54,548 nt of DNA from Ruminococcus sp. (lineage in GTDB: Bacteria > Bacillota > Clostridia > Oscillospirales > Ruminococcaceae). The stretch is from assembly GCA_012718885.1 (NCBI GenBank), contig JAAYBK010000357.1, positions 1 through 54,548 on the forward strand, given 5' to 3'. Both the position numbers and the translations under genes were made by a program. Positions 3,735 through 42,471 of the stretch are shown one piece after another. The notes beneath the pieces were generated by a model. It searched no databases, was not told the DNA's origin, and was given only the letters and a program-made list of their open reading frames with translations. How positions within the stretch are numbered: position 1 is the first letter of the stretch; each line of letters opens with the position of its first letter.

Positions 3735-3743
3735 ACCGCTGCC

Positions 3744-5472: not shown

Positions 5473-5515
5473 GAAAGAGCTCCTGCGGAAGCCTAATCCG
5501 CAGGAGCTCTTTTTC
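5473..5515. terminator. Bidirectional intrinsic terminator
   Basis: agagctcctgcgga/tccgcaggagctct stem with flanking A/T runs between convergent units. Confidence 0.8.
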
Positions 5516-12589: not shown

Positions 12590-12610
12590 AATTTTACTCC
12601 TTAATAAAGC

Positions 12611-13348: not shown

Positions 13349-13358
13349 ACTGACCTCC

Positions 13359-15592: not shown

Positions 15593-15594
15593 TG

Positions 15595-17733: not shown

Positions 17734-17762
17734 TACTATTTCTTCCTTTCGATTATTACTTT

Positions 17763-20063: not shown

Positions 20064-20068
20064 GACAT

Positions 20069-20770
20069 TTACCTCGCCGTATATCCGCCGTCTATGACTA
20101 TGCACTGTCCGGTTATAGCCGGATTGTCTGCCAGCATCACTATGGCCTTCACTACCTCATCGGCATTGACCCTGCTCCTTGGCAGCATAGCCGTAACGGT
20201 CATCCACTCACGCTTCTTCTTTACCTGCTTCTCCACCTTCTTCAGGAAGTCGGATCCGAAAAATCCCGGGCACACACAGTTTGCAGTGATCTTTCTGCTG
20301 CCGTAGTCAAGAGCCACGGAACGCATGAGATTTATGACTGCTGCCTTTGAAGCACAGTATGAAGCGGATTCATAGGTACCTACGATACCGTACTGCGATG
20401 CAACTGCGATAAGGCTTGCGCCCTCTGCCGCAAATGGGATAAGATGATGCAGAGTTCTGTAAAGACCGGTAACATTTACGTCCATAGCCTGGGACCATGC
20501 CTCAGGAGATATATCTGTAACGCTGCCGTAATTGAAGATGCCTGCCGAATATACGAACACATCGAAGCTGATGCCGTTCTTTTCGAGATATGCGGCTACA
20601 CTCTGCACATCCTCCTCATTTGTTACATCACAGTGTATGTATTCACCGTTTGCCGGAAGCTCCTCCGGCTCCTTTATATCACAGAGCAGCAGTCTGTCAT
20701 CACGGAAGGAATCTGCTATGCTTCCGCCGAGAAGTCCTGATGCTCCGAACACGATCACATTCCTGCTCAC
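20069..20770 (-). CDS. SDR family oxidoreductase
   Basis: GASGLLG, YCASK, NCVCPG, IDGG. Confidence 0.88.
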   Translation of the reverse strand: MSRNVIVFGASGLLGGSIADSFRDDRLLLCDIKEPEELPANGEYIHCDVTNEEDVQSVAAYLEKNGISFDVFVYSAGIFNYGSVTDISPEAWSQAMDVNVTGLYRTLHHLIPFAAEGASLIAVASQYGIVGTYESASYCASKAAVINLMRSVALDYGSRKITANCVCPGFFGSDFLKKVEKQVKKKREWMTVTAMLPRSRVNADEVVKAIVMLADNPAITGQCIVIDGGYTAR

Positions 20771-21513
20771 GCTGTAAGACCTCCGTCAACTACAAGTACC
20801 TGTCCGTTTATATATCCGGAGCAGTCAGATGCAAGGAACATTGCTGCGTTGGCGATATCATCAACATCGCCTATCCTTGAAGCAGGGATGTCCTTTATGA
20901 TCTTCTCCTTCATCTTGTCCGGGATGGTATCCAGCATCTCTGTAAGGATATATCCGGGAGCAATGGCATTGACGTTGATATTCTTTCCGGCGACCTCCTT
21001 TGAAAGGCTCTTTGTGAATCCGATAAGGCCGGCCTTTGAAGCGGAGTAGTTGGTCTGTCCGGCCATACCGGCAATACCGCCTACAGATGTCATGTTTATG
21101 ATCTTGCCGCTGCGGTTTCCGATGAAATGAGTGAGGAACTGCTTTGTTACATTGAATGCGCCTGTGAGGTTCACTTCAATTACCTTTCCCCAGTTATCGC
21201 CTGACATGAGCATCATATATCCGTCCTTGGTGATACCGGCATTGTTTACCAGGATATCCACCTTGCCGAAATCGCTGAGGATCTGCTTTGCTGCTGCCTT
21301 TATGCTTTCGATATCAGATACATCGGCACAGTAGCCCTTTACCTGAACGCCGCTGCCGGCATATTTTACCTCAAGCTCCTCTGCTCTTCCCTTTGAAGAT
21401 CCGTAGATGAATGCTACATTTGCACCATGGGAAGCAAAATTCTCTGCGATAGCTCTTCCTATGCCACGGCTTCCGCCTGTTACTACAGCTGTTTTTCCAG
21501 TGAAATCAAACAT
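20767..21513 (-). CDS. fabG: 3-oxoacyl-ACP reductase
   Basis: TGGSRGIG, NNAGITKD, GQTNYSASK. Confidence 0.9.
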   Translation of the reverse strand: MFDFTGKTAVVTGGSRGIGRAIAENFASHGANVAFIYGSSKGRAEELEVKYAGSGVQVKGYCADVSDIESIKAAAKQILSDFGKVDILVNNAGITKDGYMMLMSGDNWGKVIEVNLTGAFNVTKQFLTHFIGNRSGKIINMTSVGGIAGMAGQTNYSASKAGLIGFTKSLSKEVAGKNINVNAIAPGYILTEMLDTIPDKMKEKIIKDIPASRIGDVDDIANAAMFLASDCSGYINGQVLVVDGGLTA

Positions 21514-21525
21514 AGTGTGTCTCCT

Positions 21526-22509
21526 TTATTCTCCGAGTACGAAGGCTTCTACTGTACCGGACATCTCTGTTCCAAGGACCAGCACCTTCTCATAGCGCTT
21601 ATTCTTTACAAGAACTGAGCCGAGGATAACGCTTGATACTGCACTTGCACCGAAGCTCTCGCCCAGCATATCCCTTGCGTTGATGACCTCACAGCCGCTG
21701 CCGAATATCTCCTCTACAGCTGTCTTCTCGTCCTCGCTTACTGATGACTGTGCAATATTTGAAAGAAGCACAAGATCGATGTCCTCAGCTTCCAGCTCAG
21801 CCTTTCTGAGAGCCTTCTTTATAACTCTTGTATATGCTGATACCACATCTCTGCCTGACTGATAGAGCGGTGAGAAACCGATACCTGTCTCTGCGTCTCC
21901 GAGAATACGTCCGTAGATCTCACGGGCTGAATCCTCGCTCTCAACTACTACTCCTGCAACGCCTTCTGATATAACATCGCCGCCGAATTTCTTTACTGCT
22001 GTTGAAGCAACAGGGCTGCAATACTCATCGCCGCCGCATACCACGATAGCGTTATCAGGCTTCTTCTCCACCTGTCTCATGGAATATGACAGAGCGTTGC
22101 TACCCATAAGAAGGGTGCTTGGTCCCTTGAGGCCGAAGTAGAGAGCCACGTTTCCGAGAGCTGCGTTTGATACTGTATTTGCGAAATCCATAGGACTTGC
22201 CAGCTCAGGTGTCGGGAGAAGTCTTCCGAACTCAATGTTGAGATTGATCGAGCCGTAGTCTGTATTCATGATTATACCTGTATTATCGCCCTTCTCACAG
22301 CCTGACATCTTAAGGCAGTTATCTGTTACAGCCGCACACATACGTCCGAAACGTCCCATACGTCTGATCTTTCTCGGATCCAGTGAATGGCTGAAATCGA
22401 GCTCGCCGCCTGTAGGCTTCTTTCTGCTGTCCCAGCTGTTGAGTATATCTGACTCTGTGCTGCCCATCTCTGAGATCATTCCCCAGCCGGTTATTGCTGT
22501 TTTGCACAT
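21526..22509 (-). CDS. Chain-length-factor-like non-catalytic ketosynthase
   Basis: RKIRRMGRF, SPMDFANTVSNAALG, LKGPSTLL with no catalytic Cys, LGESFGA with no His. Confidence 0.8.
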   Translation of the reverse strand: MCKTAITGWGMISEMGSTESDILNSWDSRKKPTGGELDFSHSLDPRKIRRMGRFGRMCAAVTDNCLKMSGCEKGDNTGIIMNTDYGSINLNIEFGRLLPTPELASPMDFANTVSNAALGNVALYFGLKGPSTLLMGSNALSYSMRQVEKKPDNAIVVCGGDEYCSPVASTAVKKFGGDVISEGVAGVVVESEDSAREIYGRILGDAETGIGFSPLYQSGRDVVSAYTRVIKKALRKAELEAEDIDLVLLSNIAQSSVSEDEKTAVEEIFGSGCEVINARDMLGESFGASAVSSVILGSVLVKNKRYEKVLVLGTEMSGTVEAFVLGE

Positions 22510-22515
22510 ACTTCA

Positions 22516-23673
22516 TTACATCCTTTCCATTACGCCTGACTTCTCAAGCTCCTTTATTCCCAGCAGGGCTGCTGTAAAATGTGCATTGCCCCAGCCGGCT
22601 ATCTTTATCCTGTCCTTCTTCATGCAGGACACAGGGTTTTTCATATTGTCACGGCAGCTGAATGCCCAACCGGCAAAATTTCCGCAGCCGTACTGTCTTA
22701 TAAGTTCATCGTAGCCTACCACCTCGGTGATCTTTGCACCGCCGAGAAGTTCTGAGGCGTTCCTTCTTATCATATCCTCATCTGCGCTCTCGTCGTAGTA
22801 GATATCGGCTCTCTGGAAGCCGCCGCTGCTCCATCTTATCATCTGGATGATACCGTACTCGTCAGCCTTGTCAGGAACTATGAACTCGAAATCCGTATCC
22901 AGTTCCTCATCCGACACATACATCGTCATAAGCCTTACTCTTGACTTGCTTGTATCAGAAGCCTCGATCAGCACATCGTATCCCAGTGTTTCGCCGCCGG
23001 CAGTCAAGGTCTTCTCAGCTTCATTGATGACTATATCGTCAAAGCTGCTTACCTTTATCACCTTTTCAGGATCCTCGCTCTTTATGAGCCATGCGGCCAT
23101 ATGCTCGAGGCTATCAGTATGGCAGCTGCTGTCAAAGACTTGTCCGGAAATGTAGCCTGCCGCTGTATTCAGGGAGATATCCTTTCTCGGCACGAATGCT
23201 CCGAGGACCTTATTCCACTCCTCTGAACCGGAGAGCTTCTCTGCAAAGCCGCTGTAATCCTTCATAAAGTTCTTTGCCATAACTGAAGAAGGAGAGGTAT
23301 TCACCTTGAAGCCGCTGTGTACGCTCAGCTTCCATTCAGCACCTATACTGCTCAAAGTATCCGAAAAAGCGGCTGCCGCTTCATTTCCGGCACCGGATAT
23401 ATCTGCAAGGCTGCGGATAAACTCATCTGCTCCTCTGTCTGCCTTGTACCTGTGAGCGGAGGTCCTTACCGAAAAGCCGTGACCGGGCTTCTGCTCAACA
23501 TCGTACCCCAGTTTCTCAGCGGCCAGCGCCATCATACCGTCTGCACTGTCGCAGCAGTAAAATGTGATGTCCTTGATATTACCGGTGCTTATGCGCCTGT
23601 GCTCAACGCCGTTCATTTCAAGGAATCGGCTGAGCGAAAGAGCGGTTATATTATTGCCTATGATAACGACCAT
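22516..23673 (-). CDS. Degenerate CrtI-like protein
   Basis: VVIIGNNITAL replaces GxGxxG; GNFAGW and AGWG echo the C-terminal family motifs. Confidence 0.55.
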   Translation of the reverse strand: MVVIIGNNITALSLSRFLEMNGVEHRRISTGNIKDITFYCCDSADGMMALAAEKLGYDVEQKPGHGFSVRTSAHRYKADRGADEFIRSLADISGAGNEAAAAFSDTLSSIGAEWKLSVHSGFKVNTSPSSVMAKNFMKDYSGFAEKLSGSEEWNKVLGAFVPRKDISLNTAAGYISGQVFDSSCHTDSLEHMAAWLIKSEDPEKVIKVSSFDDIVINEAEKTLTAGGETLGYDVLIEASDTSKSRVRLMTMYVSDEELDTDFEFIVPDKADEYGIIQMIRWSSGGFQRADIYYDESADEDMIRRNASELLGGAKITEVVGYDELIRQYGCGNFAGWAFSCRDNMKNPVSCMKKDRIKIAGWGNAHFTAALLGIKELEKSGVMERM

Positions 23674-23678
23674 AGTCC

Positions 23679-24869
23679 TTACCCCGCATATCTTCTGAGC
23701 ACTATGCTGGCTGTATTTCCTGCAAATGCAAAGGAATTGGATATTACATAATCAACAGGACGATGAACTGTCTCTGAACCGATGATATGGATACCGCCCT
23801 CTGTTTCAAGCGGCTTGTCCAGTCTGAATGTACCGGGCATGAACTGATGCTTGAGTGCCAGTGCGGATATAGCAAGCTCAATGCTTCCGGCAGCTCCCAG
23901 GCAGTGACCTGTGATAGCCTTTGTTGATGAAACATAGATATTCGGCTGATCCGGGAAGAGCTTCTCTATGCCCTTGATCTCCATGGTATCATTGGCCTTT
24001 GTGCCTGTACCATGAGCGTTGACATATACATTCTCATCTGTTATATTGATATCAGCATCCTCAAGAGCTTCCTTCATTGCGATATATGCGCCCTCACCGT
24101 CCGGTCTGGGTGAGGTGATGTGGTATGCCTCGTTCTTTGCAGCATATCCTGCTACCTCAGCGTATATATCTGCGCCTCTTGCAACTGCGTGATCCAGCTC
24201 CTCGAGAACTATGAATGCACTTGCCTCACCAAGATTGATACCGCTTCTGTCCTGATCAAAGGGACGGCACTTATCCTCGGCAATAGCCTTGAGTGCACTG
24301 AAGCCAACTGATGAGAAGAGTGTGAGGGCATCTGTACCGCCTACGATAGCGACCTCTGTCTCTCCGCTCTTTATTGCGTCGAAGGCGATGCCTGCTGCTG
24401 CCGTACCTGCTGCACAGGCTGACATTGTGGTATATACAGGGCCGTTTACGCCAAGCTTGCTGCTGATCTTGTTGATGAAATCCGGAACTATGTATACATA
24501 ATCCTCATCGTTCTCAGGAGTATCGCTGTTTACATAGCGCATCATATTCTGATTTCCTGACATCGATGTAGCAAATGAGAATACAACATCCTCGCTGTTC
24601 TCTGCGATCATATCCTTCAGAGCCTTGTCCTTGTAGAGATCATCGATAGCCTCGAAAGCCACTGCTGTAGTTCTCTCGTCGCACTCATCCTCATATCTGA
24701 GAGGCCTTTTGATCTCACAGCCAAGTCTTGATACAAGTCCGTCTGTACTGTAGAGATCTACCTCTGACTGGCCTTCCTTGAGTTCCTCAAGAGCTTCGAT
24801 GAGCTCGCTCTCATTGCCGGCATTTGATGATACTACACCGATACCGGTAACAACTATCCTCTTTTCCAT
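23679..24869 (-). CDS. Beta-ketoacyl-ACP synthase (FabF-like, type II KS)
   Basis: SACAAG, NAHGTGT, KAITGHCLGAAG, SNSFAFAG. Confidence 0.93.
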   Translation of the reverse strand: MEKRIVVTGIGVVSSNAGNESELIEALEELKEGQSEVDLYSTDGLVSRLGCEIKRPLRYEDECDERTTAVAFEAIDDLYKDKALKDMIAENSEDVVFSFATSMSGNQNMMRYVNSDTPENDEDYVYIVPDFINKISSKLGVNGPVYTTMSACAAGTAAAGIAFDAIKSGETEVAIVGGTDALTLFSSVGFSALKAIAEDKCRPFDQDRSGINLGEASAFIVLEELDHAVARGADIYAEVAGYAAKNEAYHITSPRPDGEGAYIAMKEALEDADINITDENVYVNAHGTGTKANDTMEIKGIEKLFPDQPNIYVSSTKAITGHCLGAAGSIELAISALALKHQFMPGTFRLDKPLETEGGIHIIGSETVHRPVDYVISNSFAFAGNTASIVLRRYAG

Positions 24870-24890
24870 GCGATCACCTCTTAGCGGTCA

Positions 24891-25175
24891 TTATTCCTGG
24901 CCGTTCTCACGAACATAGTCTGCGATAGATGAGATGCTCTGGAAGATACCCATTTCCTCATCGCTTACCTCGATGCCGTACTTCTCCTTGAGGCCTACTA
25001 CCAGCTCAAGAGCGTCAACTGAGTCAAGTCCGAGGCCATCGCCCTCTGAGTCGAATGAAGCGAAGATAGGTGCATCATAGTCAACATCGTCCTTGTTGAT
25101 GTAGTCGATTCTGAGTCTCTCAAAGATCATGTCTCTTACTTCTTCCTCGATGTTTCTGTTTGCAAAGTTAGCCAT
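24891..25175 (-). CDS. Acyl carrier protein
   Basis: LGLDSVDALELV; start MANFANR follows GGAGG. Confidence 0.92.
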   Translation of the reverse strand: MANFANRNIEEEVRDMIFERLRIDYINKDDVDYDAPIFASFDSEGDGLGLDSVDALELVVGLKEKYGIEVSDEEMGIFQSISSIADYVRENGQE

Positions 25176-25256
25176 TGTTAATTCCTCCATTAAATAAATA
25201 TAGTTTTATAAATTTTTCCCTTACGGGTATATTTACACGTCTTTCAGACGGTAAAA

Positions 25257-26792
25257 TCATGCTGAATGGTTTTTGCTGAAATCATATATCTCTTCGATAT
25301 GATCGCAGCGGAGTATCTTGTCTGCAACTCTCATTGCAACGTCTGTGGTGAATATCACACCGTCGCCTACTCCTCCCCAGTGTCCGGTGAGGAACAGGCC
25401 GTCTACCAGCTGGCGGCAGTCCAGGAGCGAGAAGTTCTCAACCAGCTCCGGAGTACATTTATATCCTCCGAAGGCGCCCTTGCTGTTGCCGGTATATCGC
25501 TGGAAGGTGACCGGAGAAGCTATCTCCATCACTTCGATATGCTCGCTGATGCCGGGGAAGAATCTCTCTGCCTTGCGGACAAGATTCATAGCTGCCGCTT
25601 TTTTCTTTTCACGGTAGAGCTTCCTGTCGGTATCACGGAGCTTGTACATATCCTCAAAGTCCCAGTTCACAAGCATTCCCAGCATCATCTGTCCCTTTCC
25701 CTCGGGGCAGGCTGTAGGATCGTTGTTTGCCGAAAGACTTATCAGCAGGAAATCATTTTCTCTCTGGACGCTGTGCTCTCCGATAAGCTTTGCCTTATCG
25801 TCAAGAACGCTCATTGCGTCCGGATAATAGGATATATTCACCGGCTCATAGCCAAGAGACTTTATATCCTTGTCAAGGCCTATCCATACCGAGAAGCAGG
25901 ACGGGCTCTCTGTAAACTTGGTATTTATCTTTTCAAGCACTCGCTGGGGAACATTTTCCTCTCCCACCAGCTCACGTATGGTGAAGCCCAGGTCACAGTT
26001 GGAAACTATGTAGTCTGCTTTGAGTATCTCTCCCTTGCAGACAACTCCCACTGCTCTGCCGTCCTCCATTATGATCCTTTCGGCAGGACTGTTCAGGAGA
26101 ACTCTTCCTCCCAGCTCCTCGATGCGCTTGCGGAGGAGCTCGATTATAGCTCCTGCACCGCCTACGGGCTGGTACGTCTCCTCACCGCAGTTTGCGAATG
26201 AGACCATTCTTATGAAGGCGAACAACGCTCCGCCTGGCATCGCATCGGATATTGCCACCAGCAGGCTGATTATCTTCTCATTGCTGAATATTCCTCTCAG
26301 GAACTGATCCACAGACATCTTTCTATATTTGTCCAGTATCTTCAGATCGGTCAGCGAGAACTTGCTTATTCCTGCATTGGCGCCCTTGTCGATTATATCC
26401 AGTATGGAATTGATCTTGTCCACCTCTGCTTCAAAGCGGTCTATATCCGCCCTGTCCTCCGGGAAAAGCTCCCTGAGGGAATCAGCGGCGCTGGAATTGC
26501 ACATATTGAAATTGATATCGCCCACCTGAACATTCTCATGGAAGGTGTACCATTCCGGCAGTTCCTTCACTCCAAGAGCACTCAGGATACCATCCACGCT
26601 GTTTCTGCCGTGGATACCGCCTATCCTGTGGACAGCCGCTGCGAACCTGAAGCCCTTTCTGGAAAAGCTCTGACAATAGCCGCCGGCAACGCTGTGCTTT
26701 TCAAGGACCGTCACATCGTATCCCTTATTCGCCAGCGCACAGCCGCAGGTCATGCCGGATATTCCGGAGCCTATAACGATTATCTTCTTCAT
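25257..26792 (-). CDS. Phytoene desaturase (CrtI)-family FAD oxidoreductase
   Basis: GSGISG...EKHSVAGGYCQSFSRKGFRF, SPVTFQRYTGNSKGA, GHW. Confidence 0.88.
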   Translation of the reverse strand: MKKIIVIGSGISGMTCGCALANKGYDVTVLEKHSVAGGYCQSFSRKGFRFAAAVHRIGGIHGRNSVDGILSALGVKELPEWYTFHENVQVGDINFNMCNSSAADSLRELFPEDRADIDRFEAEVDKINSILDIIDKGANAGISKFSLTDLKILDKYRKMSVDQFLRGIFSNEKIISLLVAISDAMPGGALFAFIRMVSFANCGEETYQPVGGAGAIIELLRKRIEELGGRVLLNSPAERIIMEDGRAVGVVCKGEILKADYIVSNCDLGFTIRELVGEENVPQRVLEKINTKFTESPSCFSVWIGLDKDIKSLGYEPVNISYYPDAMSVLDDKAKLIGEHSVQRENDFLLISLSANNDPTACPEGKGQMMLGMLVNWDFEDMYKLRDTDRKLYREKKKAAAMNLVRKAERFFPGISEHIEVMEIASPVTFQRYTGNSKGAFGGYKCTPELVENFSLLDCRQLVDGLFLTGHWGGVGDGVIFTTDVAMRVADKILRCDHIEEIYDFSKNHSA

Positions 26793-26810
26793 ACATCACT
26801 CTCCCTTTTG

Positions 26811-27575
26811 TCATTCAGTCTCAGCAAGGAGAGCCTCAAGCATCTTCTGCTCTTTTTTAAGGCTTCTGATGAACTCTGAGCCTGACATATACTTTTTCTT
26901 GTATAATTCTCTCCAGTCGCTTCCGAGACCAAGTATGTTCTCGAAGACCTCTCTGCGCTGCTCAGTGAAGGATTCGTCAATGCTTACTTTCACCGAGCCG
27001 TTGAGATGTCCTGCGAGCCTGCTGCTTATGAAGCATCTCAGGCCGGAGACCAGCTTTCTTATGTAGACCTTCCGGCAGCTTTCAGCCCTGCTGTGTATAC
27101 TTTCGGGATAGAAGTTGATATCCTCGTACACTGCCCAGTCCCTTGTATTGTCAAAGGCAGCTGAAGCTCTTTTCTCAAGGCTGCGGCCGGTATGCCACCT
27201 GCCGTCGGACAGCTTCCAGAGCCCAAGGCCTGCGATATTCTTCAGACTGCTGACTCTTTCATATGTGAAGCTGCACTTGTCTGAAGCATCCTTGTCGTAC
27301 TTCCTTACGAATACGCTGCTGCCGGCTGCCATTTTCTGCTTCAGTCTCCTGAGCTTCTTGCTGCCGAATTTCTGGACCACAGACTGTATTTCAAGCTGAT
27401 AATATTCCCTTATGATATCCAGCCGGTTCTCGGTAAATGCCTTTACGGAAAATCTGCTGTGGGAAGTCTGGCACAGATCAAAGGTCAGCTCTGAGCACAT
27501 AGCCGCTATCTCATCAGTCTCCCCGTTATCCGGGAGAGCCATTGCTATCGCTCTCATCTGAGTGTTCTTATTCAT
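26811..27575 (-). CDS. Hypothetical protein
   Basis: 254 aa in-operon ORF with ATGA coupling; no motif recognised. Confidence 0.7.
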   Translation of the reverse strand: MNKNTQMRAIAMALPDNGETDEIAAMCSELTFDLCQTSHSRFSVKAFTENRLDIIREYYQLEIQSVVQKFGSKKLRRLKQKMAAGSSVFVRKYDKDASDKCSFTYERVSSLKNIAGLGLWKLSDGRWHTGRSLEKRASAAFDNTRDWAVYEDINFYPESIHSRAESCRKVYIRKLVSGLRCFISSRLAGHLNGSVKVSIDESFTEQRREVFENILGLGSDWRELYKKKYMSGSEFIRSLKKEQKMLEALLAETE

Positions 27576-28612
27576 GCTGCAAACACCTCCCTGAGACCGT
27601 CTACGGCCTGTTCTTCCTTGGATCTGATCTTATCGAGGAGATCGATGGTAGCTTCGCCGTTCATACGCTCTTCCACGGACAGATCCTTTTTCATTATCCT
27701 TGCTGCAAATTTGTTCCAGAGATAATCTGCTCCGGAAAGGAGGCTGCTTATCTCTGAAAGTTCCTTCTCCCTGCCGATATACGGTACACACTCCATAAGG
27801 AACTTGCCGTACATCTTCCTGAACATTCCGGGAGAGACGAATTTTATAAGGCTGCCGGTTATTTCAAGCGATACCCGGCATATTGTCTTTCCGCAGCTGT
27901 CCGGCAGCTCCGGGAAGCGTTCCATGAATCTTGTGAAGGCTTTCATGCCCAGCCGCTCATTGCCGCCGTCCAGGTACTCCTTAAGGTTGCCTCTTACGGC
28001 TCTATAGATCATGCCTTCTACATCCGCCCGGCTCATATCTGCCGGAAGGACGATGTGGTGTATCCTGTGGTGCGGGTCAAGGTAGGAATCCGAACCGATA
28101 TCCCTCGCCCTGGCGAATACCTCTCTTGGTATGCTGTACACCTCACTGCTGTAATTCTCGCAGATGTACACGTTTTCCTGGTCTATGCCGATTATCTCGG
28201 TCACATGGCTGGCAACATGCAGATCCAGCTTGAAATCTTTCCAGAGGGAAGCCTTGCTGCCCAGGTAATCCGCATATACCTCCGGGCAGACCTCGCAGAT
28301 CACCGGATTGTCCTCCAGCCTGAGCATTGACTCCAGCTTTGAGAAGTCGTTGTCGGCCTCGGATACTATCCTGTAGTCCACTCCTGCATTCTGAGCAAAA
28401 TGCTCGAACTGCATAAGATTGGGAGCAAGCGCCTTGAAAAATTTGTTCTCGGAGAATATCCCGCCCGGATCCACATAGGCGAAGCTGAGACCGCCTGCAA
28501 GACCGAACACGAACTCCTCCCTTACCGTAAGTCCGCAGCGTTCAAGAGTATCCCTTATCGCAACGGTCCGGCATGATTTTCCCTGGGTGTGTTTAAAGTT
28601 CTCTAAAATCAT
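27572..28612 (-). CDS. BtrH N-terminal-domain protein
   Basis: SCRTVAIR, FGLAGGLSF, SHVTEIIGID, MFRKMY. Confidence 0.78.
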   Translation of the reverse strand: MILENFKHTQGKSCRTVAIRDTLERCGLTVREEFVFGLAGGLSFAYVDPGGIFSENKFFKALAPNLMQFEHFAQNAGVDYRIVSEADNDFSKLESMLRLEDNPVICEVCPEVYADYLGSKASLWKDFKLDLHVASHVTEIIGIDQENVYICENYSSEVYSIPREVFARARDIGSDSYLDPHHRIHHIVLPADMSRADVEGMIYRAVRGNLKEYLDGGNERLGMKAFTRFMERFPELPDSCGKTICRVSLEITGSLIKFVSPGMFRKMYGKFLMECVPYIGREKELSEISSLLSGADYLWNKFAARIMKKDLSVEERMNGEATIDLLDKIRSKEEQAVDGLREVFAA

Positions 28613-30815
28613 TGAGTATCTTCTCCATATTTCCGTTATGCCTGAAGCGGAGCACGAGCATTGTGCCGAAGTATACGATGAATGTCATAAGAACGGCAAA
28701 TCCAATGCCGACTGCGTCAGGATCGGAGGGATATCTCACTCCTGAAGCCTTTACTGCAATTGAGCAGATAAGGTTGAGGATGAAGAATGAATACGGTATG
28801 CTTATGAGGACGCCTATGAGAAGGAATCCGTTATATGAGCCGTATACCATGCGGTTCATTATCTTGTTCTTTATGCCGTTTGCCTTGAATACGTATATCT
28901 CCTTCTTGTTCTGGGATATGAGTACGGAAACGGTAACTGCTATCAGTATAACAGGGATGAGTATTCCAAGCACTCCGAGTATGATGGAGCCGTACTTCAT
29001 TACCTGCTGTGAACTCTCATAGCTTTCGAGTATGCTGCTTCTTGTGAGTACGGATGAGTAATTCTCGCTGCTGTCCACGGTTATGGAAGCGTCTGAGGTA
29101 AACATTCCGTTGTACTTGTTTTCAATGACATTCTCTCCTGCCAGCCATGCATGGTCGATGAATACTTCCTTGCCGGCAACACGGTCTGAAATGCCTGCCA
29201 CCTTGACCTCGATCTCCTTGTCATAGATCTCCAGCTTTATGCTGTCGCCCTTTTTAGCCTTGAGCACATCTGCTGAGGTCTTGTTGAGTATAGCCTCTCC
29301 GGCAGCGGGATGTCCGCCGATATCCAGCAGAGCACCGTCCTCCAGTGCGTTCACTGTTACGATAACGTCATCCTTCTTGCCCTTTCCCATAGCCTTGAGC
29401 TCGTAGAAATACTGATCGCCCTCAGTTGACTTTTCAGCCGGCTGACGGAAGTACACCTGAGACTCAAAATCCATTGATTCTTCCTGTGCGTCACATATAT
29501 TCTTCGGGAAGCGGTATATGGAATAGCTGAGGAAGAACTCTACTCCTGCTGCGAATACACTGAACAGCACCAGTACCAGGAGGAGCTTGCTTCTTATAGC
29601 GAAGGAGGTCTTTATCTTCTTCTCGATGCTGCTCTTTTTTGTGAGTTTCTTCACGAATCTCTCAAATCTGCTGATACCTGTGGCCTTTGCGTCACGGAGC
29701 ATATCCACAACGCTGAGTTTAAGTATGCTGCGTGTGCCGAAAACTGCTGCGATAATACCTACAAAGAGGACTATCCACATAAACATACCGAAGAAAAGCG
29801 GTTCAAAGCTGAACTTCATCTCCGGGAGGCTGAGGTCAGTCTCAAGTAGCTTATTGAATACCGGTGCAAACAGCGAACCGGTGATATAGCCTGCGATAGC
29901 TGCCGGGAGCATAAGTCCTGCAACAGCCTTGAGATAGCCGAAGAACACCTTTTTCCTTGGCAGTCCGTTGGCTACCAGTACGCCTACGTTCTTCTTATTC
30001 TCGCCAATGAGGATATAGATGAACATTATAAGCATAACTGCTATCATAACCGACATTATGCAGAGTGAGATAACTGTGAGCATAAAGTATATGCTGATCT
30101 TTCCGCCAAGACCGTTCATTGAGGAATTATCTGCCCTGAATGTAACGGAAGCAAGCTCCCTGCTCCTTACCAGTTCAGATGTATGATCGCTGATCTTTTC
30201 ATCGCTGATGTCCTTGAACTTCGCCTTGTACACTACTGAGAGCTTGCCGCCCTCTATAGCTGCGGTATCCTCTGCTGAAGCCATTATGAGCGCTTCATTT
30301 TCCGGATCATAGCTGAGTGAATCATTTCTTACGTGCATACGGATATAATCCGGAAGTGTCATTATACCTGCCACCTTATAGCTTTTGCCGCTGATAGTGA
30401 CAGTATCTGCTACTGCAACGTCATTCTTTTCTGCATATTCCTTGTTTATGAGGATCTCACCTGCTGCGGAAAGGCTGTTTCCGTCGGTGATATGCGGCTT
30501 GTCGATCTTTTCGGCAGCAGATATCACTCTGTAGCTCACGCCGTCCGCAGTAAACTCATTGATGTATCTTTCCTCATAGTCAAGATCGTATTTTGCCGCC
30601 AGAGCCTCAACATCAGTTCCCTCTGCCGGAACGAATTCCAGATCCTCCGCATTGGTCTCACTGAAATAGTCCTTCTGGAACTTGTTGTTTGCAGAATACA
30701 GATTCACAGACATTGACGCTACGAACATCCAGAGGAATGTCAGAAGGATGATACCTGCTGTCTGTATCTTTTTCTTCGAGAAGCTGCGGAATATCATTTT
30801 ATTCATAGGCTGCAC
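28593..30815 (-). CDS. FtsX/MacB-like ABC exporter permease
   Basis: Two TM clusters with ENKKNVGVLVANG and QNKKEIYVFKANG motifs. Confidence 0.88.
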   Translation of the reverse strand: MQPMNKMIFRSFSKKKIQTAGIILLTFLWMFVASMSVNLYSANNKFQKDYFSETNAEDLEFVPAEGTDVEALAAKYDLDYEERYINEFTADGVSYRVISAAEKIDKPHITDGNSLSAAGEILINKEYAEKNDVAVADTVTISGKSYKVAGIMTLPDYIRMHVRNDSLSYDPENEALIMASAEDTAAIEGGKLSVVYKAKFKDISDEKISDHTSELVRSRELASVTFRADNSSMNGLGGKISIYFMLTVISLCIMSVMIAVMLIMFIYILIGENKKNVGVLVANGLPRKKVFFGYLKAVAGLMLPAAIAGYITGSLFAPVFNKLLETDLSLPEMKFSFEPLFFGMFMWIVLFVGIIAAVFGTRSILKLSVVDMLRDAKATGISRFERFVKKLTKKSSIEKKIKTSFAIRSKLLLVLVLFSVFAAGVEFFLSYSIYRFPKNICDAQEESMDFESQVYFRQPAEKSTEGDQYFYELKAMGKGKKDDVIVTVNALEDGALLDIGGHPAAGEAILNKTSADVLKAKKGDSIKLEIYDKEIEVKVAGISDRVAGKEVFIDHAWLAGENVIENKYNGMFTSDASITVDSSENYSSVLTRSSILESYESSQQVMKYGSIILGVLGILIPVILIAVTVSVLISQNKKEIYVFKANGIKNKIMNRMVYGSYNGFLLIGVLISIPYSFFILNLICSIAVKASGVRYPSDPDAVGIGFAVLMTFIVYFGTMLVLRFRHNGNMEKILNDFREL

Positions 30816-30820
30816 CTCCG

Positions 30821-31525
30821 TCAGTTCCAGAGAACATCTTCAGCTTCGATAGTTTTTGTATTTCTTATGTCCTCTTTGATCTCGCCGTCGATCACACGGA
30901 TAACATGGTCTGCCATTTTCTGCATACCAAGAAGGTGTGTAACGACGATGACAGTTGTTCCACGGCGGTTAAGATCCTGGAGTATGCGGAGAACGTTCTT
31001 GCCGTTCTTCTCGTCAAGAGCTCCTGTAGGCTCATCGCAGAAGAGTATAGCCGGCTCCTTTGCAAGAGCTCTTGCTATAGCTACACGCTGCTTTTCGCCG
31101 CCTGAGAGCTGTCCCGGGAACTTATCTGCCTGTTTTTCCATACCAACAAGGCTCAGCGCCTTGTCTGCGTCACATTTTTTCTTTGTGACAACGCTCATGA
31201 CCTCGATATTCTCCTTTACGGTAAGGTTCTCGATAAGGGAGTAGTCCTGGAATACGAAGCCGATCTTTCTGCGGTAGTCATTGAGAGCCTTTTCACGGGA
31301 CTTGCTGAGCTTGAAGCCTGCACTCTCAACATCGCCGGATGTTGAGGAATCAAGTCCGCCGAGAATATTGAGCAGAGTGGATTTTCCGGCTCCGCTGGGA
31401 CCTACGATGACTACGAATTCGCCGTCTTCTATTTTAAGGTCGATATTCTTTAGAAGCTGCTGCGAAACCTCTCCGGTCTTCACAGTCTTGTTCAGCTTAC
31501 TTACATTACAGATCTTTTTCATCAT
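30821..31525 (-). CDS. ABC transporter ATP-binding protein (LolD/MacB type)
   Basis: GPSGAGKS, LSGGEKQR, CDEPTGALD. Confidence 0.95.
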   Translation of the reverse strand: MMKKICNVSKLNKTVKTGEVSQQLLKNIDLKIEDGEFVVIVGPSGAGKSTLLNILGGLDSSTSGDVESAGFKLSKSREKALNDYRRKIGFVFQDYSLIENLTVKENIEVMSVVTKKKCDADKALSLVGMEKQADKFPGQLSGGEKQRVAIARALAKEPAILFCDEPTGALDEKNGKNVLRILQDLNRRGTTVIVVTHLLGMQKMADHVIRVIDGEIKEDIRNTKTIEAEDVLWN

Positions 31526-32844
31526 TTATCTCTCCTTTTCACGCATTTCTCCAGCTTTCCGATACAGCTTTTGAGTATATCAGCGATATTGTCGCATTCC
31601 TTTCTGCTTATATTCAGCACCGGTGCAACTATCATCGTATCCGGGCCGTCCGGATATAGGAGAAGTCCGCTTCCGGCAGCAAAATTCGTGAGTATATCTG
31701 CTATGCCGAACTCCGGCATACCTATTATCTGATAGTCATTGAAGAGTATGGAAAGCATCAGGCCTTTTCCTCTGATCTCATCAACAAGGAAGCTTCCGCC
31801 CAGCTCATCCTTTAGCCTGCCGAGAAGGTATTCACCCATTTCTGCTGAGTTCTCCGACATATTCTCTCTTTCGAGTATCTCGATATTTTTAAGAGCCGCT
31901 GCACATCCTACCGGATGTCCGCCGGTTGTAAAGCCGTTTTCGAGGAGCTTTTCAGAGCCGCCTGCAAAGGCCTCATACACCTCTCTTATAGCAAGCACTC
32001 CGCCCATCGGGAAATATCCGGAGGTCACTCCCTTAGCAAACATCATAAGGTCTCCCCTGATGCCGTAATGCTCGGAGGCGAACATCTTTCCTGTTCTTCC
32101 GAAGCCTGTGGCCACCTCGTCAACGACTACCAGCACATCGTTTTTCTTACTGATATCGTACATTCCCTTTACGAAGCTCTCCGGGAGGATATTCACACCG
32201 TTTGAAAGCTGTATCAGCTCCATGAATACCGCTCCGATCTCCTTTGTACGGATGAGCTCTTCGTACTGAGCAAGGCACTTTCCGATCTCCTCGTCATCGC
32301 TTTCGTATGAAGGAACATCTATCTGATAGTAACCTGAACAGTCATTGAAATACTGCTCGTTTTCGTACTGACCCTGGCCAAGCTTCATGGCGGTGAGGTT
32401 GGAGCCGTGGTAAGCGCCCTTCAGGGAAACTATCCCGCACTCCTTCATGCCCTTCATATAAGCGTACTTCCTTACGATCTTTACTGCCGTATCGCAGGCC
32501 TCAGAGCCACTGTTTGTGAAAAAGCAGCTATAGTAATGATCTCCTGTAAGCTTACAGAGTTTTTCGGAGCATCTCAGTGCCGCATCATTTGTTGTAGTGA
32601 AGAGCGTTGTATTATCGAGACGGAAGAACTGTTCGTTCACTGCTTCGATAAGCTCCTTGTTGCAGTGTCCTATGTTCGCATTGAGGAGCGTTGAAACTCC
32701 GTCGTACATTTTCTTTCCCTTGCTGTCTGTGTAGTAGTTATCTGTATCAACATCTGTCAGAACACGGTAGCTCTTCTCAAGATATACCTTCATATCCTTG
32801 AAAGCTGCCCAGACCTTGTTTCCTGCTTCTTTTGAAAAGTCCAT
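31522..32844 (-). CDS. Class III PLP-dependent aminotransferase
   Basis: NSGSEA, AYHG, DEVATGFGRTG, FAKGVTSGY; start MDFSKE after GGAGG. Confidence 0.92.
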   Translation of the reverse strand: MDFSKEAGNKVWAAFKDMKVYLEKSYRVLTDVDTDNYYTDSKGKKMYDGVSTLLNANIGHCNKELIEAVNEQFFRLDNTTLFTTTNDAALRCSEKLCKLTGDHYYSCFFTNSGSEACDTAVKIVRKYAYMKGMKECGIVSLKGAYHGSNLTAMKLGQGQYENEQYFNDCSGYYQIDVPSYESDDEEIGKCLAQYEELIRTKEIGAVFMELIQLSNGVNILPESFVKGMYDISKKNDVLVVVDEVATGFGRTGKMFASEHYGIRGDLMMFAKGVTSGYFPMGGVLAIREVYEAFAGGSEKLLENGFTTGGHPVGCAAALKNIEILERENMSENSAEMGEYLLGRLKDELGGSFLVDEIRGKGLMLSILFNDYQIIGMPEFGIADILTNFAAGSGLLLYPDGPDTMIVAPVLNISRKECDNIADILKSCIGKLEKCVKRRDK

Positions 32845-32920: not shown

Positions 32921-32986
32921 ATTATAGCCCCTGCATCTGCTGTCAACAACAAAATGCGAGTGAGTAAAACTTTTTTTGGAGTAAAC
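32921..32986 (-). promoter_or_regulatory. LytTR-type boxed promoter of the biosynthetic operon
   Basis: GTTTACTC (32986-32979) plus degenerate ACTCACTC 21 bp downstream; 8 bp; TTGTTG-17-TATAAT. Confidence 0.7.
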
Positions 32987-33121
32987 GGTAATTTCATACT
33001 CTTCGCCATTGGCGATGATATCCGCTATATAGCGCAGATCCGGCAAGGATCAGCATTTCTGTTCCCGTTCGCACTCAGCTTGCCGTCATTGCCCCGGGCA
33101 CCTTTAAACTCCCATATGTCA

Positions 33122-33158
33122 GAAATAAAATCGGTTCCGCAGCTTCTGCGAAACCGAA
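33122..33158 (-). terminator. Terminator after micropeptide copy 1
   Basis: UCGGUUUCGCAG/CUGCGGAACCGA stem then UUUUAUUUC. Confidence 0.7.
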
Positions 33159-33193
33159 GGATCTTCTTACCCGGCATAGCTGCCGGCTCATTC

Positions 33194-33229
33194 TTATCTT
33201 CCGAAGATGAAATCCCAGAATCCGCCCAT
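33194..33229 (-). CDS. 11-aa micropeptide MGGFWDFIFGR, copy 1
   Basis: ATG GGC GGA TTC TGG GAT TTC ATC TTC GGA AGA TAA; SD GAAGGAAG; own promoter and terminator. Confidence 0.82.
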   Translation of the reverse strand: MGGFWDFIFGR

Positions 33230-33281
33230 TTTTAGCACTTCCTTCCGTATGTTTTTTCAACGTTTCCGTTTCGTTGCGCTT

Positions 33282-33347
33282 ATTATATTTCATATTTCCC
33301 GTTCCCTCAATCAATATGGAGTAAACGAGACGTTTTCCGGAGTAAAC
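33282..33347 (-). promoter_or_regulatory. LytTR-type boxed promoter of peptide copy 1
   Basis: GTTTACTCC twice (cores 33347-33340, 33326-33319); 8 bp; TTGAGG-17-TATAAT. Confidence 0.8.
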
Positions 33348-33369
33348 TAAAAATCCATCGTTAAAAGTA

Positions 33370-33408
33370 AAAAAATATCCGGATATTTCATTATCCGGAT
33401 AATTTTTT
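33370..33408. terminator. Terminator after micropeptide copy 2 (bidirectional form)
   Basis: tatccggata/tatccggata stem with A and T runs. Confidence 0.7.
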
Positions 33409-33429
33409 GTATGTTCCGCCAGCAGACTA

Positions 33430-33458
33430 TTGACAGGCAGTAGAAATTGTGGTAAAAT
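33430..33458 (+). promoter_or_regulatory. Sigma-A promoter, probably for LytTR/HK operon 2
   Basis: TTGACA-17-TAAAAT with extended TG. Confidence 0.7.
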
Positions 33459-33476
33459 TTAATGAGAGTTAATTTT

Positions 33477-33512
33477 TTATCTTCCAAAGATAAAATCCCA
33501 GAATCCGCCCAT
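33477..33512 (-). CDS. 11-aa micropeptide MGGFWDFIFGR, copy 2
   Basis: Same peptide as copy 1 with two synonymous TTC>TTT changes; SD AAAGGAG. Confidence 0.82.
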   Translation of the reverse strand: MGGFWDFIFGR

Positions 33513-33561
33513 TTTTCACAGCTCCTTTCGCAGTAATCAGATTTCTCAATTCGTTGACTCG

Positions 33562-33627
33562 ATTCTACCACTCTCTATAGTCCCCGGCAACTTAATCAGA
33601 GTAAACCGACATTTATTTGGAGTAAAC
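33562..33627 (-). promoter_or_regulatory. LytTR-type boxed promoter of peptide copy 2
   Basis: GTTTACTC twice (33627-33620, 33606-33599); 8 bp; TTGCCG-17-TAGAAT with TG. Confidence 0.8.
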
Positions 33628-33671
33628 AAAACAATCTACATTTTATCAACTGAAAGGACACCGGTAATACT

Positions 33672-34382
33672 ATGAAGATAGCAATTTGTGATGATAAGGC
33701 AACTATGCGCAGAGACCTGAAAAAACATCTTGAAGATTACGCAATAAAACGAAGGCTTGATCTTGTGTATGACGATTACAGCAATGGTTCAGACCTCCTT
33801 GCAAGCCCTATTGAATACGATGTAATATTTATGGACTATCAGATGGATGGCCTGGACGGCCTGGAAACCTCACGCAAGCTCAGGGACAAGAACATCAAAG
33901 CTGTTATAATATTCCTGACAAGCTTCCCGCATATAGTATTCGATGCATTTGAAGTGAACACATACCGCTTCCTGCTCAAGCCTATAGATGCAGAAAAGCT
34001 GGCCTCAGCTATGGATGACTACCTTAAAAGTCTCGATGACAGCCAATATATAGTAATAAAGACCGATGATGACAACCGGAGGATAAATATCGACGACATT
34101 ATATATGCCGAAGCCTCTGATAAATATTGCTATATCAGAACTGCTGACGAGAACATCCTATACAAGAATACCCTTTCAGAATTTGAAAAGCTTCTGCCGC
34201 AGGATTCCTTCTTCCGCAGCCACAGAACATATCTGGTAGGCTTCAAGCATATCGTTTCACATACTGCGGCAAATATACTCTTCGATAACAAGGAGCGTGC
34301 CCTTATCAGCAAGCTGAAGTATACTCCTTTCAAAAAGGCTTTTCTGGACTATGTAAAGCGCTACAACTTCTCAAAGGGCTGA
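33672..34382 (+). CDS. LytTR-family response regulator
   Basis: KIAICDD, IFMDYQM, FLLKP, FFRSHRTYLV. Confidence 0.95.
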   Translation: MKIAICDDKATMRRDLKKHLEDYAIKRRLDLVYDDYSNGSDLLASPIEYDVIFMDYQMDGLDGLETSRKLRDKNIKAVIIFLTSFPHIVFDAFEVNTYRFLLKPIDAEKLASAMDDYLKSLDDSQYIVIKTDDDNRRINIDDIIYAEASDKYCYIRTADENILYKNTLSEFEKLLPQDSFFRSHRTYLVGFKHIVSHTAANILFDNKERALISKLKYTPFKKAFLDYVKRYNFSKG

Positions 34383-35755: not shown

Positions 35756-36202
35756 CTACAGCTTGTTGTAATTCGTTCCTATATAAATATCTACGATGCA
35801 GTCCGCCGGGTTTTCCGCCAGCCTTACGATATTATAATAGGGTCTTGTTATCATTTCATAGGATCTCTTCCGGATATAATCCTCAAGCTTTTTTTCAGTA
35901 GTATCGATATCAGCAAGGCTGCCCTCATGTCTTATGGTGACAGCGTTTATCAGCCGGAAAAGCTCTTTATGGCCGTATTCACTGTGATCTGTGATATCGC
36001 CGATGACCGGAACAAGTATCTCGATATCCCTCTTCTCATCTGTCGGATACGTAAAGCAGATCTTCTTTGTAGGTTCAACCCCTAATGCGGATACATTCCG
36101 GCAGATGTGATCCGCCAGCTTCGGAATATCCTCCTTAGGAAGATTCGTCCTGTATGAGATCATGTTTTCCATAAATAGGGAACGGTTTTCAAGTATCTGC
36201 AA
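35756..36202 (-). CDS. GyrI-like/DUF5085-like small-molecule-binding protein
   Basis: AVTIRHEGSLADIDTTEKKLEDYI pattern; TTG start after AAGGTGG. Confidence 0.6.
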   Translation of the reverse strand: MQILENRSLFMENMISYRTNLPKEDIPKLADHICRNVSALGVEPTKKICFTYPTDEKRDIEILVPVIGDITDHSEYGHKELFRLINAVTIRHEGSLADIDTTEKKLEDYIRKRSYEMITRPYYNIVRLAENPADCIVDIYIGTNYNKL

Positions 36203-36314: not shown

Positions 36315-36380
36315 ATTTTACATATATATAGCCCCTCCGTCACCTTTTTTTCCGTGAATGGCCCCTTATTAAGAGTAAAC
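36315..36380 (-). promoter_or_regulatory. Fourth LytTR-type boxed promoter (weaker match)
   Basis: GTTTACTC (36380-36373) plus ATTCACGG 21 bp downstream; 8 bp; GTGACG-17-TAAAAT. Confidence 0.55.
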
Positions 36381-36442
36381 AGCTCTCCTTATCAAAAATC
36401 ATCCGTATATCCATAATACTTACATCAATGATACACGCTGAT

Positions 36443-41799: not shown

Positions 41800-41830
41800 A
41801 TCAGCACCTCCTTTTAAGATATCGCCTCTG

Positions 41831-42451: not shown

Positions 42452-42471
42452 AGCACACCCTCCTTTTCCTG

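What the first reader, a model, noticed from the sequence alone, without database searches (positions are those of the whole stretch)
33122..33627. Twin unannotated 11-aa peptide genes (MGGFWDFIFGR), each with its own LytTR-boxed promoter and terminator
Seen: 33194-33229 and 33477-33512 encode an identical peptide and differ only by two synonymous Phe codons, while their flanks have diverged. Each has an SD, a GTTTACTC direct-repeat promoter and a terminator. They lie divergent from an AgrA/AgrC-type pair. Known: LytTR regulators bind direct repeats about two helical turns apart just upstream of -35 and often autoinduce their signal peptide. Inference: an ultra-short, leaderless, Cys-free, AgrB-independent autoinducer that fits none of AgrD thiolactone, double-glycine-leader or SHP/ComS-RRNPP systems.
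Basis: partly seen in the sequence, partly recalled or inferred. Interest (0 to 1): 0.93.

Follow-up and report, generated by a model that had tools for sequence, protein, structure and literature searches.

The report
Ultra-short peptide signals for sensor kinases
Ruminococcus-type bacteria carry tiny overlooked genes for tryptophan-rich peptides, most only 7 to 24 amino acids long, beside a membrane sensor kinase and its regulator, and these peptides are likely a self-made cell-to-cell signal that would need no leader sequence or processing enzyme.

Summary
Observation confirmed. Both ORFs encode the same 11-mer, each with a ribosome-binding site, a 21-nt-spaced repeat promoter and a terminator. 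They belong to a family: 42 distinct W/F-rich peptides of 7-24 aa at AgrA/AgrC-type pairs in Oscillospirales-level relatives, including a second system in this window (5387-5428). A fixed rule hit 9 of 13 dereplicated hold-out loci against 26 of 1767 background genes. New parts: a co-regulated GyrI-like protein (24 of 41 regions), the same repeat before a 22-kb biosynthetic cluster, and a conserved promoter that would transcribe the regulator-kinase operon antisense through the proximal peptide gene (20 of 24 loci). No AgrB, leader or shared exporter lies at the loci. The kinase sensor domain is hypervariable. Best reading (0.6, untested): a leaderless autoinducer read by an AgrC-type kinase. 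Rivals: in-membrane feedback modulator, antimicrobial with immunity protein, lipopeptide precursor. Translation, export and binding are not shown. The scan's earlier notes held no match on other DNA.

The parts
33477..33512 (-). Proximal 11-aa peptide ORF
   Evidence: homologues at the same position in related loci
33194..33229 (-). Distal 11-aa peptide ORF, identical peptide
33522..33528 (-). Shine-Dalgarno site of the proximal copy (7-nt match)
33240..33244 (-). Shine-Dalgarno site of the distal copy (5-nt match, weaker)
33598..33629 (-). Direct-repeat pair, lag 21, predicted LytTR site of the proximal copy; weak -35 at 33585-33590, extended -10 at 33562-33567
33318..33349 (-). Direct-repeat pair, lag 21, predicted LytTR site of the distal copy; -35/-10 at 33282-33310
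33368..33408 (.). Bidirectional terminator-like hairpin behind the proximal copy
   Evidence: z -4.3
33122..33157 (-). Terminator-like hairpin and U tract behind the distal copy
   Evidence: z -4.6
33430..33458 (+). Near-consensus sigma-70 promoter (11 of 12) predicted to transcribe the regulator-kinase operon antisense through the proximal peptide gene
   Evidence: at least 10 of 12 in 20 of 24 loci of the subclade, opposite strand 3 of 24, shuffles 6.4%
33672..34382 (+). REC + LytTR response regulator (AgrA type)
   Evidence: PF00072, PF04397
34387..35676 (+). AgrC-type histidine kinase; all-helical N-terminal membrane sensor without a large outer loop in the model
35756..36202 (-). GyrI-like / DUF5085-like protein, conserved fourth gene of the module
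36351..36382 (-). Direct-repeat pair before the GyrI-like gene
   Evidence: score 18.2, site not in the training set
32957..32988 (-). Direct-repeat pair before the first gene of the biosynthetic cluster
   Evidence: score 23.0, site not in the training set
11105..32844 (-). Likely output: type II fatty-acid/polyketide-like cluster (class III aminotransferase, ABC/FtsX, two BtrH_N+DUF4872, four FAD oxidoreductases with Pfam hits, ACP, two ketosynthase-like, two SDR, thioesterase, FabA-like, metallo-hydrolase, PPTase); not part of the core module
   Evidence: BtrH-like gene in 3 of 161 genomes of the genus
5387..5428 (+). 13-aa W/F-rich peptide ORF of a second system in the window
5274..5305 (+). 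Direct-repeat pair (10 nt, lag 21) of the second system
5474..5512 (+). Perfect 16-bp terminator-like hairpin of the second system
   Evidence: z -5.2
2442..4448 (-). Second LytTR regulator (3744-4448) and GHKL kinase (2442-3734), divergent from the 13-aa ORF; no biosynthetic cluster under it

Best explanation
The two ORFs encode one member of a conserved family of ultra-short W/F-rich peptides that are likely translated without a leader, likely leave the cell, and are predicted to switch on the neighbouring AgrC-type kinase, whose LytTR regulator would then drive more peptide, the GyrI-like protein and the adjacent biosynthetic cluster. Shown: the ORFs, their SD sites, repeats and terminators, their conservation and linkage to two regulator clades, the same repeat before the GyrI-like gene and cargo genes, and the absence of AgrB, leader and shared exporter at the loci. 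Inferred: the repeats are the regulator's sites; the peptide partitions into the membrane as a short helix and docks in the membrane sensor domain from outside; sequence differences give strain-specific channels; the GyrI-like protein binds the hydrophobic peptide (or the cargo product) in the cytoplasm as a sink; and the regulator-kinase transcript, running antisense through the proximal copy, keeps the loop tightly off and is damped once the loop is on, while the distal copy lies outside that overlap.
For: Family: a rule for a divergent SD-led W-containing hydrophobic ORF within 600 nt hit 29 of 36 loci with regulator identity of 40% or more and 26 of 1767 background genes (rule written after seeing these peptides); on hold-out metagenome loci 9 of 13 dereplicated, 0 of 24 below 40%, and the 4 misses carry a peptide just under a threshold. 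Second regulator clade: 14 of 20 by a relaxed rule against 32 of 797. Best repeat lag is 21 in 34 of 49 promoters against 5.6% in shuffles. pN/pS 0.23 over 13 pairs (pairs picked for peptide likeness, so biased low). Hydrophobic moment peaks at 100 degrees; 34 of 42 peptides beat their shuffle mean. Kinase: best structural match is AgrC (E 2.9e-8); sensor domain averages 16% identity against 35% for the cytoplasmic part, and peptide likeness follows the sensor after removing the cytoplasmic part (partial r 0.37, against 0.02 the other way; 31 loci). Two regulators that have lost the kinase have also lost peptide and GyrI-like gene (G155, G107). Cargo is varied and typical of density-controlled output: LanB, LanM, radical-SAM, adenylation domain; in two loci the repeat precedes a separate RiPP precursor. 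Precedents: leaderless hydrophobic 8-10-mers are secreted signals that control adjacent clusters (PMC10518010); CSP1 binds ComD through the hydrophobic face of a helix (PMC8905529); agr is hypervariable across AgrD and the 5' part of agrC (PMC3673130).
Against: No direct evidence of transcription, translation, export or binding. No export route was found: EcsB/PptB over cut-off in 0 of 5 genomes, no shared transporter among 48 neighbours scanned. The window's own 11-mer is not amphipathic by the moment test (z -0.9). Raw rank correlations of peptide with sensor and with cytoplasmic part are alike (0.19, 0.21), peptide likeness also follows the regulator (partial r 0.37 on 16 loci), and kin are not independent. 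G090 has lost the start of its proximal copy and G055's only copy runs on to 20 codons; G068 has regulator and kinase but no peptide in 900 nt. Longer members (24-35 aa) in the second clade have N-terminal extensions and may be processed. A GyrI-like relative in G968 heads a double-glycine bacteriocin-type operon, which suits an immunity role.
Confidence: 0.6

Rival explanations
1. The peptide stays in the producing cell's membrane and acts as a feedback modulator of its own kinase (MgrB/PhoQ-like, recalled; Sda/KinA-like), with the kinase sensing something else.
For: No leader and no exporter; regulator-driven expression and co-divergence with the sensor fit equally; small proteins that bind kinases are known in Gram-positives (PMC10730256 passages).
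Against: 7-11 residues cannot span a membrane; sister kinases can carry unalignable peptides, which suits strain-specific signalling better than a housekeeping brake; gene duplication to 2-3 separately promoted copies suits a demand for amount.
Confidence: 0.17
2. The peptide is an output, a membrane-active antimicrobial or surfactant (PSM-like or leaderless-bacteriocin-like, both recalled), and the GyrI-like protein is its immunity factor.
For: Amphipathic W/F-rich helices; GyrI-like gene often directly behind the peptide; GyrI-like folds bind albicidin and closthioamide (PMC9545259 passages); relative in a bacteriocin-type operon; G051 has three such ORFs in a row before the GyrI-like gene.
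Against: Net side-chain charge is 0 in 22 of 42 and negative in 7; many are 7-13 aa, short for pore formers; peptide likeness follows the sensor (partial r 0.32) and not the GyrI-like protein (0.07) on 16 loci; GyrI-like gene is missing from 17 of 41 regions.
Confidence: 0.13
3. The 11-mer is the substrate of the adjacent cluster: Met is removed and the BtrH-like acyltransferases put a cluster-made acyl chain on Gly2, giving a ribosomal lipopeptide (which might itself be the signal).
For: The cluster holds two BtrH_N/DUF4872 proteins and is found in just the three genomes with two or three copies of this ORF, one copy decayed in G090; G055 lost the cluster and its peptide changed; RiPP/fatty-acid hybrids exist (listing only).
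Against: Most family loci have no such cluster; Gly2 in only 7 of 42 peptides; twin copies also occur without the cluster (L159); the second system in this window has none. Homologous clusters in other genera could not be fetched, so this is not excluded for this one locus.
Confidence: 0.05
4. The short transcript matters as RNA (antisense control of the regulator-kinase leader) and the peptide is incidental.
For: A strong promoter fires through the proximal ORF on the other strand in 20 of 24 loci.
Against: Composition, helical periodicity and synonymous excess are protein-level constraints; the distal copy and the second clade lie outside such an overlap; Rfam gave only one weak match (E 0.025, 21 bits against a threshold of 97).
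Confidence: 0.05

Closest known systems
Leaderless communication peptides (LCP; SIP/RopB), PMC10518010
   Same: Ultrasmall SD-led ORF, no leader, hydrophobic and aromatic, usually divergent from the regulator, own code per lineage, adjacent biosynthetic clusters as targets, unknown export.
   Different: LCPs are read by the cytosolic RRNPP regulator RopB and are listed for Bacilli families; the paper's main text has 0 hits for histidine kinase, two-component, Clostridi or Ruminococcus. Here the partner is a membrane kinase plus LytTR regulator, the peptides carry D/E/K/R in a helical pattern, and a GyrI-like gene is co-regulated.
Agr / Fsr / Lam systems (AgrBDCA)
   Same: AgrC-type kinase with hypervariable membrane sensor, LytTR regulator with direct-repeat sites, peptide gene under the repeat. 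The core of several peptides recalls the hydrophobic end of S. aureus AIPs listed in PMC3673130 (a lead only).
   Different: No AgrB at the loci, no AgrD-type propeptide, no ring-forming Cys in 38 of 42 peptides; kinase scores 31 bits against the AgrC equivalog cut-off of 500.
ComCDE / Blp / Pln double-glycine pheromone systems
   Same: Linear unmodified peptide, likely helical with a hydrophobic face, read by the same kinase and regulator type.
   Different: No leader and no C39-peptidase exporter at the window's loci; mature-size peptide is encoded directly.
GyrI-like ligand binders (CtaZ, CTR107, STM3175, EcmrR domain)
   Same: Fold of the fourth gene (Foldseek E 1.6e-6 to 4.5e-5, TM about 0.7).
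   Different: Under 20% identity; ligand unknown; tied to a signalling module rather than to one antibiotic cluster.

Membership tests
LCP/RopB | Ultrasmall SD-led ORF encoding a mature-size peptide without secretion signal or cleavage site | tested here: met
LCP/RopB | Hydrophobic, aliphatic/aromatic, mostly 8-10 aa | tested here: inconclusive
   W 14%, F 14%, L 13%, I 12%; lengths 7-24, most 11-15, with charged residues
LCP/RopB | Adjacent RopB-clan RRNPP receptor | tested here: not met
   neighbours are REC+LytTR and GHKL kinase
LCP/RopB | Secreted and acts between cells | not testable with these tools
   needs supernatant and reporter assays
Agr (AgrBDCA) | AgrC-type kinase and LytTR regulator | tested here: met
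   family type only, far below equivalog cut-offs
Agr (AgrBDCA) | AgrB linked to the locus or at least in the genome | tested here: not met
   none at the loci; G000 20.7 bits partial (86% complete), G072 22.6 and G051 20.3 bits partial, against 102-139 bits for real AgrB elsewhere in G049, G060, G166
Agr (AgrBDCA) | AgrD propeptide with ring-forming Cys/Ser and acidic tail | tested here: not met
   11 aa, no Cys; Cys in 4 of 42 family members, none 4-5 residues from the end. The TIGR04223 search is uninformative, no control rang
Double-glycine pheromone (ComC/BlpC type) | N-terminal leader ending in GG plus C39 ABC exporter | tested here: not met
   in-frame stops 2 and 10 codons upstream; the GG after Met is not shared by the family; C39 exporters lie elsewhere in 4 of 5 genomes
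SHP/ComS with Rgg/ComR | RRNPP receptor, propeptide, PptAB export | tested here: not met
   no RRNPP neighbour; EcsB over cut-off in 0 of 5 genomes while 2 of 14 controls ring
Ribosomal lipopeptide precursor | Peptide co-occurs with the acylating cluster | tested here: not met
   cluster gene in 3 of 161 genomes, regulator homologue in 41 of 161; not excluded for this single locus

The most novel reading that the evidence does not exclude
A new class of quorum sensing: leaderless, unprocessed 7-15-residue W/F helices, made with no dedicated maturation or export gene, that cross the membrane and activate AgrC-type kinases, gated by an antisense regulator-kinase transcript and a GyrI-like peptide sink. 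It would supply the missing ligands for AgrB-less AgrC/AgrA pairs in Ruminococcus and relatives and a simple switch for their silent antimicrobial clusters.
Probability: 0.5. Interest if true: 0.92.

Novelty: new variant of a known kind. Interest (0 to 1): 0.82.

Why it matters
It pairs the simplest known kind of peptide signal (leaderless, 7-15 aa) with a receptor type so far tied to processed peptides, in anaerobes whose signalling is little studied. It names candidate ligands for dozens of AgrB-less AgrC-type kinases, each cheap to synthesise and test. If the reading holds, adding a short peptide could wake lanthipeptide, radical-SAM and fatty-acid-type clusters in these bacteria, the cognate pairs would form a natural set for studying how AgrC-type sensors read peptides, and the open question of leaderless peptide export would gain a second model. 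These ORFs are below normal gene-calling limits, so the family is easy to miss.

Tried and rejected
RNA evidence: two metatranscriptome runs held only small shares (0.21, 0.12) and only contigs at depth 2-14; two contigs cover 33485-33701, none covers the distal copy; this shows neither transcription nor its absence. Rfam: one weak match only. AgrD model search uninformative. Hidden upstream leader: rejected. GG as a double-glycine site: rejected, not shared by the family. Reach beyond the order: 401 class-level genomes gave no regulator above 37% identity outside G000 and none of the six new loci had a divergent peptide; the GyrI-like profile hit 1 of 250 other phylum-level genomes; these are samples, not proof of absence. 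Phage contigs: 1 of 80 loci had the module. Homologous biosynthetic clusters in other genera could not be fetched; the one class-level hit (G748) is an unrelated context; plasmid hits were all under 60%. One origin for the two regulator clades is neither shown nor rejected (p-AU 0.48). The careful sensor tree did not finish; a quick tree was used. Ten literature searches listed no paper on this family; the library lacks most subscription papers and no supplements were read.

Full report
1. Observation. Both stretches translate to the same 11-mer and differ at two Phe codons only, while 60-nt flanks are 45-53% alike. Stops lie 2 and 10 codons upstream in frame, so no leader is hidden. Each copy has an SD (7-nt and 5-nt match), a repeat pair at lag 21, a weak -35, a -10 and a hairpin that beats 200 of 200 shuffles. 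Such an octamer pair occurs only at these two places in 3.06 Mb. The divergent genes are a REC+LytTR regulator and a GHKL kinase. The closest genomes carry record titles Ruminococcus flavefaciens, Ruminococcus sp. and Clostridiales bacterium.

2. A second system in the same window. A genome-wide scan of 7206 SD-led short ORFs turned up a 13-aa W/F-rich ORF at 5387-5428. It has its own 10-nt repeat at lag 21 and a perfect terminator, lies divergent from a second LytTR-GHKL pair and has no biosynthetic cluster under it. These are the two complete pairs found in the 86%-complete genome.

3. The family. The regulator matched 41 of 161 genomes of the genus at 1e-40 and 13 of 401 of the order at 1e-36; loci were cut for the best 30 of each search plus chosen regions. 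I collected 51 ORFs by hand-guided patterns, dropped two (a spurious match and a decayed copy), leaving 49 ORFs and 42 distinct peptides of 7-24 aa; 40 hold Trp, 4 hold Cys. A fixed rule (ATG, SD of 5 or more, 7-24 codons, Trp, 40% hydrophobic, divergent within 600 nt) hit 29 of 36 loci with regulator identity of 40% or more, 4 of 14 at 34-40%, 0 of 38 below (1 left out for short flank), and 26 of 1767 background genes, one of them this locus. The rule was written after seeing those peptides, and the lowest bin includes second-clade loci whose peptide sits elsewhere, so the zero concerns this position only. On 80 metagenome loci fetched afterwards it hit 21 of 27 raw or 9 of 13 dereplicated loci at 40% or more and 0 of 24 dereplicated below (6 left out for short flank); three of the nine repeat peptides already seen; the four misses hold a peptide just under a threshold. 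In the second regulator clade the ORF mostly lies just behind the kinase: 14 of 20 loci by a relaxed rule, against 32 of 797 background, with lengths up to 35 aa. On a regulator tree the peptides fall in two clades; a single origin is neither shown nor rejected. Of the seven misses, three have a peptide that fails a threshold, two are regulators without kinase, peptide or GyrI-like gene, one has a shortened regulator match, and one (G068) is unexplained.

4. Protein-level constraint. Over 13 close pairs pN/pS is 0.23 (pairs chosen for peptide likeness, so biased low; one paralogue pair is mostly non-synonymous). The hydrophobic moment peaks at 100 degrees and 34 of 42 peptides exceed their shuffle mean, though the window's own peptide does not. 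Net charge is zero in 22 of 42 and Gly2 occurs in 7 of 42. Decay is seen: G090's proximal copy has lost its start while the distal one is intact, and G055's only copy runs on to 20 codons next to a cluster reduced to its transporter.

5. The regulon. The best repeat pair lies at lag 21 in 34 of 49 promoters against 5.6% in shuffles (consensus read from the same set). A matrix trained on 26 pairs without the window's first group (the second system's site was in training) gave 8 genome sites of 18 bits or more against 3 in a shuffled genome; five are in this window: both peptide promoters, the second system, the head of the 22-kb cluster (32957-32988) and the GyrI-like gene (36351-36382). The GyrI-like/DUF5085-like gene is in 24 of 41 regions; it follows the peptide directly in many loci and, by my count, has its own repeat pair in 9 of 12 loci where it is detached. 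Its model (pLDDT 88) matches CTR107, STM3175, CtaZ and EcmrR. Cargo varies: the fatty-acid/polyketide-like cluster is in 3 of 161 genomes; other loci hold LanB, LanM, radical-SAM, adenylation or unrelated genes (48 of the listed neighbours scanned), and in two the repeat precedes a separate RiPP precursor.

6. Face-to-face promoters. A near-consensus sigma-70 promoter at 33430-33458 (+) points through the proximal ORF into the regulator. A match of 10 of 12 or better lies within 140 nt behind the proximal ORF on the regulator strand in 20 of 24 loci of the subclade with 55% or more identity, against 3 of 24 on the other strand and 6.4% of shuffles. In the 40-50% subclade the best match lies between the genes instead. 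Inference: regulator-kinase mRNA and peptide mRNA overlap antisense, which would sharpen the switch (the pCF10 prgQ/prgX parallel is recalled, not checked).

7. The kinase. The model shows six N-terminal helices and a seventh running into the kinase core, with no large outer loop; the best structural match is the AgrC cytoplasmic part, and the sequence is far below the AgrC equivalog cut-off. Sensors average 16% identity, cytoplasmic parts 35%; peptide likeness follows the sensor after removing the cytoplasmic part (0.37) but not the reverse (0.02), though raw rank correlations are equal and kin are not independent. On 16 loci the partial link is 0.32 to the sensor, 0.07 to the GyrI-like protein and 0.37 to the regulator under a smaller set of controls. 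This fits a ligand-receptor pair but does not prove one.

8. What is missing. No AgrB at the loci, only weak partial matches in G000, G072 and G051, with strong matches elsewhere in three other genomes as positive control. No EcsB/PptB over cut-off in 5 genomes. C39 exporters lie elsewhere.

9. Mechanism and rivals. Most likely (0.6) the peptide is a leaderless autoinducer read by the kinase from outside. An in-membrane feedback modulator (0.17) explains the lack of an exporter. An antimicrobial with GyrI-like immunity (0.13) is helped by a relative in a bacteriocin-type operon and hurt by neutral charge and short length. A lipopeptide precursor (0.05) is possible only for this locus. An RNA-only role (0.05) conflicts with the protein-level constraint.

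10. Comparison with what is known. PMC10518010 (abstract, introduction and first results read, parts 1-2 of 7, plus term search) defines LCPs as 8-10-aa leaderless hydrophobic signals read by cytosolic RopB and has no mention of histidine kinases or Clostridia in its main text. PMC8905529 (passages): CSP1 binds ComD by a helical hydrophobic patch. PMC3673130 (passages): agr parts and hypervariable region. PMC9545259 (passages): GyrI-like self-resistance. PMC10730256, PMC10301443, PMC11848300, PMC13289728 and 10.1101/494179 (passages) showed nothing on this family. Lipopeptide papers were seen as listings only. MgrB, PSMs and leaderless bacteriocins are recalled. Ten searches listed no description of this module; subscription papers and all supplements were not seen. 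It works like Agr/Com on the receptor side and like LCP on the peptide side, and fails a defining test for each family.

11. Verdict. The feature is real and is one case of a conserved four-part module. As peptide-plus-kinase signalling it is a new variant of a known kind; if the leaderless-ligand reading holds it is a new class. Interest 0.82.

Noticed in passing
window 11105-32844 (-): Unusual type II fatty-acid/polyketide-like cluster with class III aminotransferase, two BtrH_N+DUF4872 proteins, several desaturase-like FAD enzymes and an AHL-lactonase-like hydrolase; close BtrH-like homologues are named from Butyrivibrio and Lysinibacillus. Product unknown.
   Followed up: partly
L331:8464-9900 (G051): Second-clade pair followed by a repeat promoter, twin 35-aa ORFs with a W/F tail, a 23-aa ORF, the GyrI-like gene, a 75-aa ORF and bacteriocin-like ORFs near a C39 exporter; may link the ultra-short peptides to longer precursors.
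   Followed up: partly
L330:7376-7537 (G024): 53-aa ORF before a second-clade regulator with a signal-peptide-like N-terminus, a glycine/acidic linker and a W-rich tail; a possible exported or anchored form.
   Followed up: no
L324:9971-16786 (G968): A distant GyrI-like relative heads an operon with two double-glycine bacteriocin-like ORFs, an ABC exporter and an accessory protein.
   Followed up: partly
L158, L159, L160 (metagenome contigs); L242 (viral contig set): The module lies next to genes that look like plasmid Rep/ParA by eye, and once in a viral-set contig, suggesting mobility; L160 has both kinase clades side by side.
   Followed up: no
L096:11706 and 12960 (G049); G000 C414:636 and C102:13363: High-scoring repeat pairs without a short ORF behind them; possible further regulon members (C102 precedes a secreted-looking gene).
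   Followed up: no
window 4641-5304: Long gap between the second regulator and its peptide holds long inverted repeats (27 nt, 430 nt apart; 32 nt overlapping the repeat pair).
   Followed up: no
window 36460-36620: Several inverted-repeat hairpins between the GyrI-like promoter and the large surface-protein gene; RNA-run contigs break off here with loose ends, as for a dispersed repeat.
   Followed up: no
window 36689-45894 (-): Operon of a 1502-aa repeat-rich surface protein, several pilin-like proteins and two signal-peptidase-like genes, judged by eye from the translations.
   Followed up: no
G000 C87:3276 (+): SD-led 8-codon ORF with two Trp, next best scorer to the peptide in the genome scan; context not checked.
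   Followed up: no
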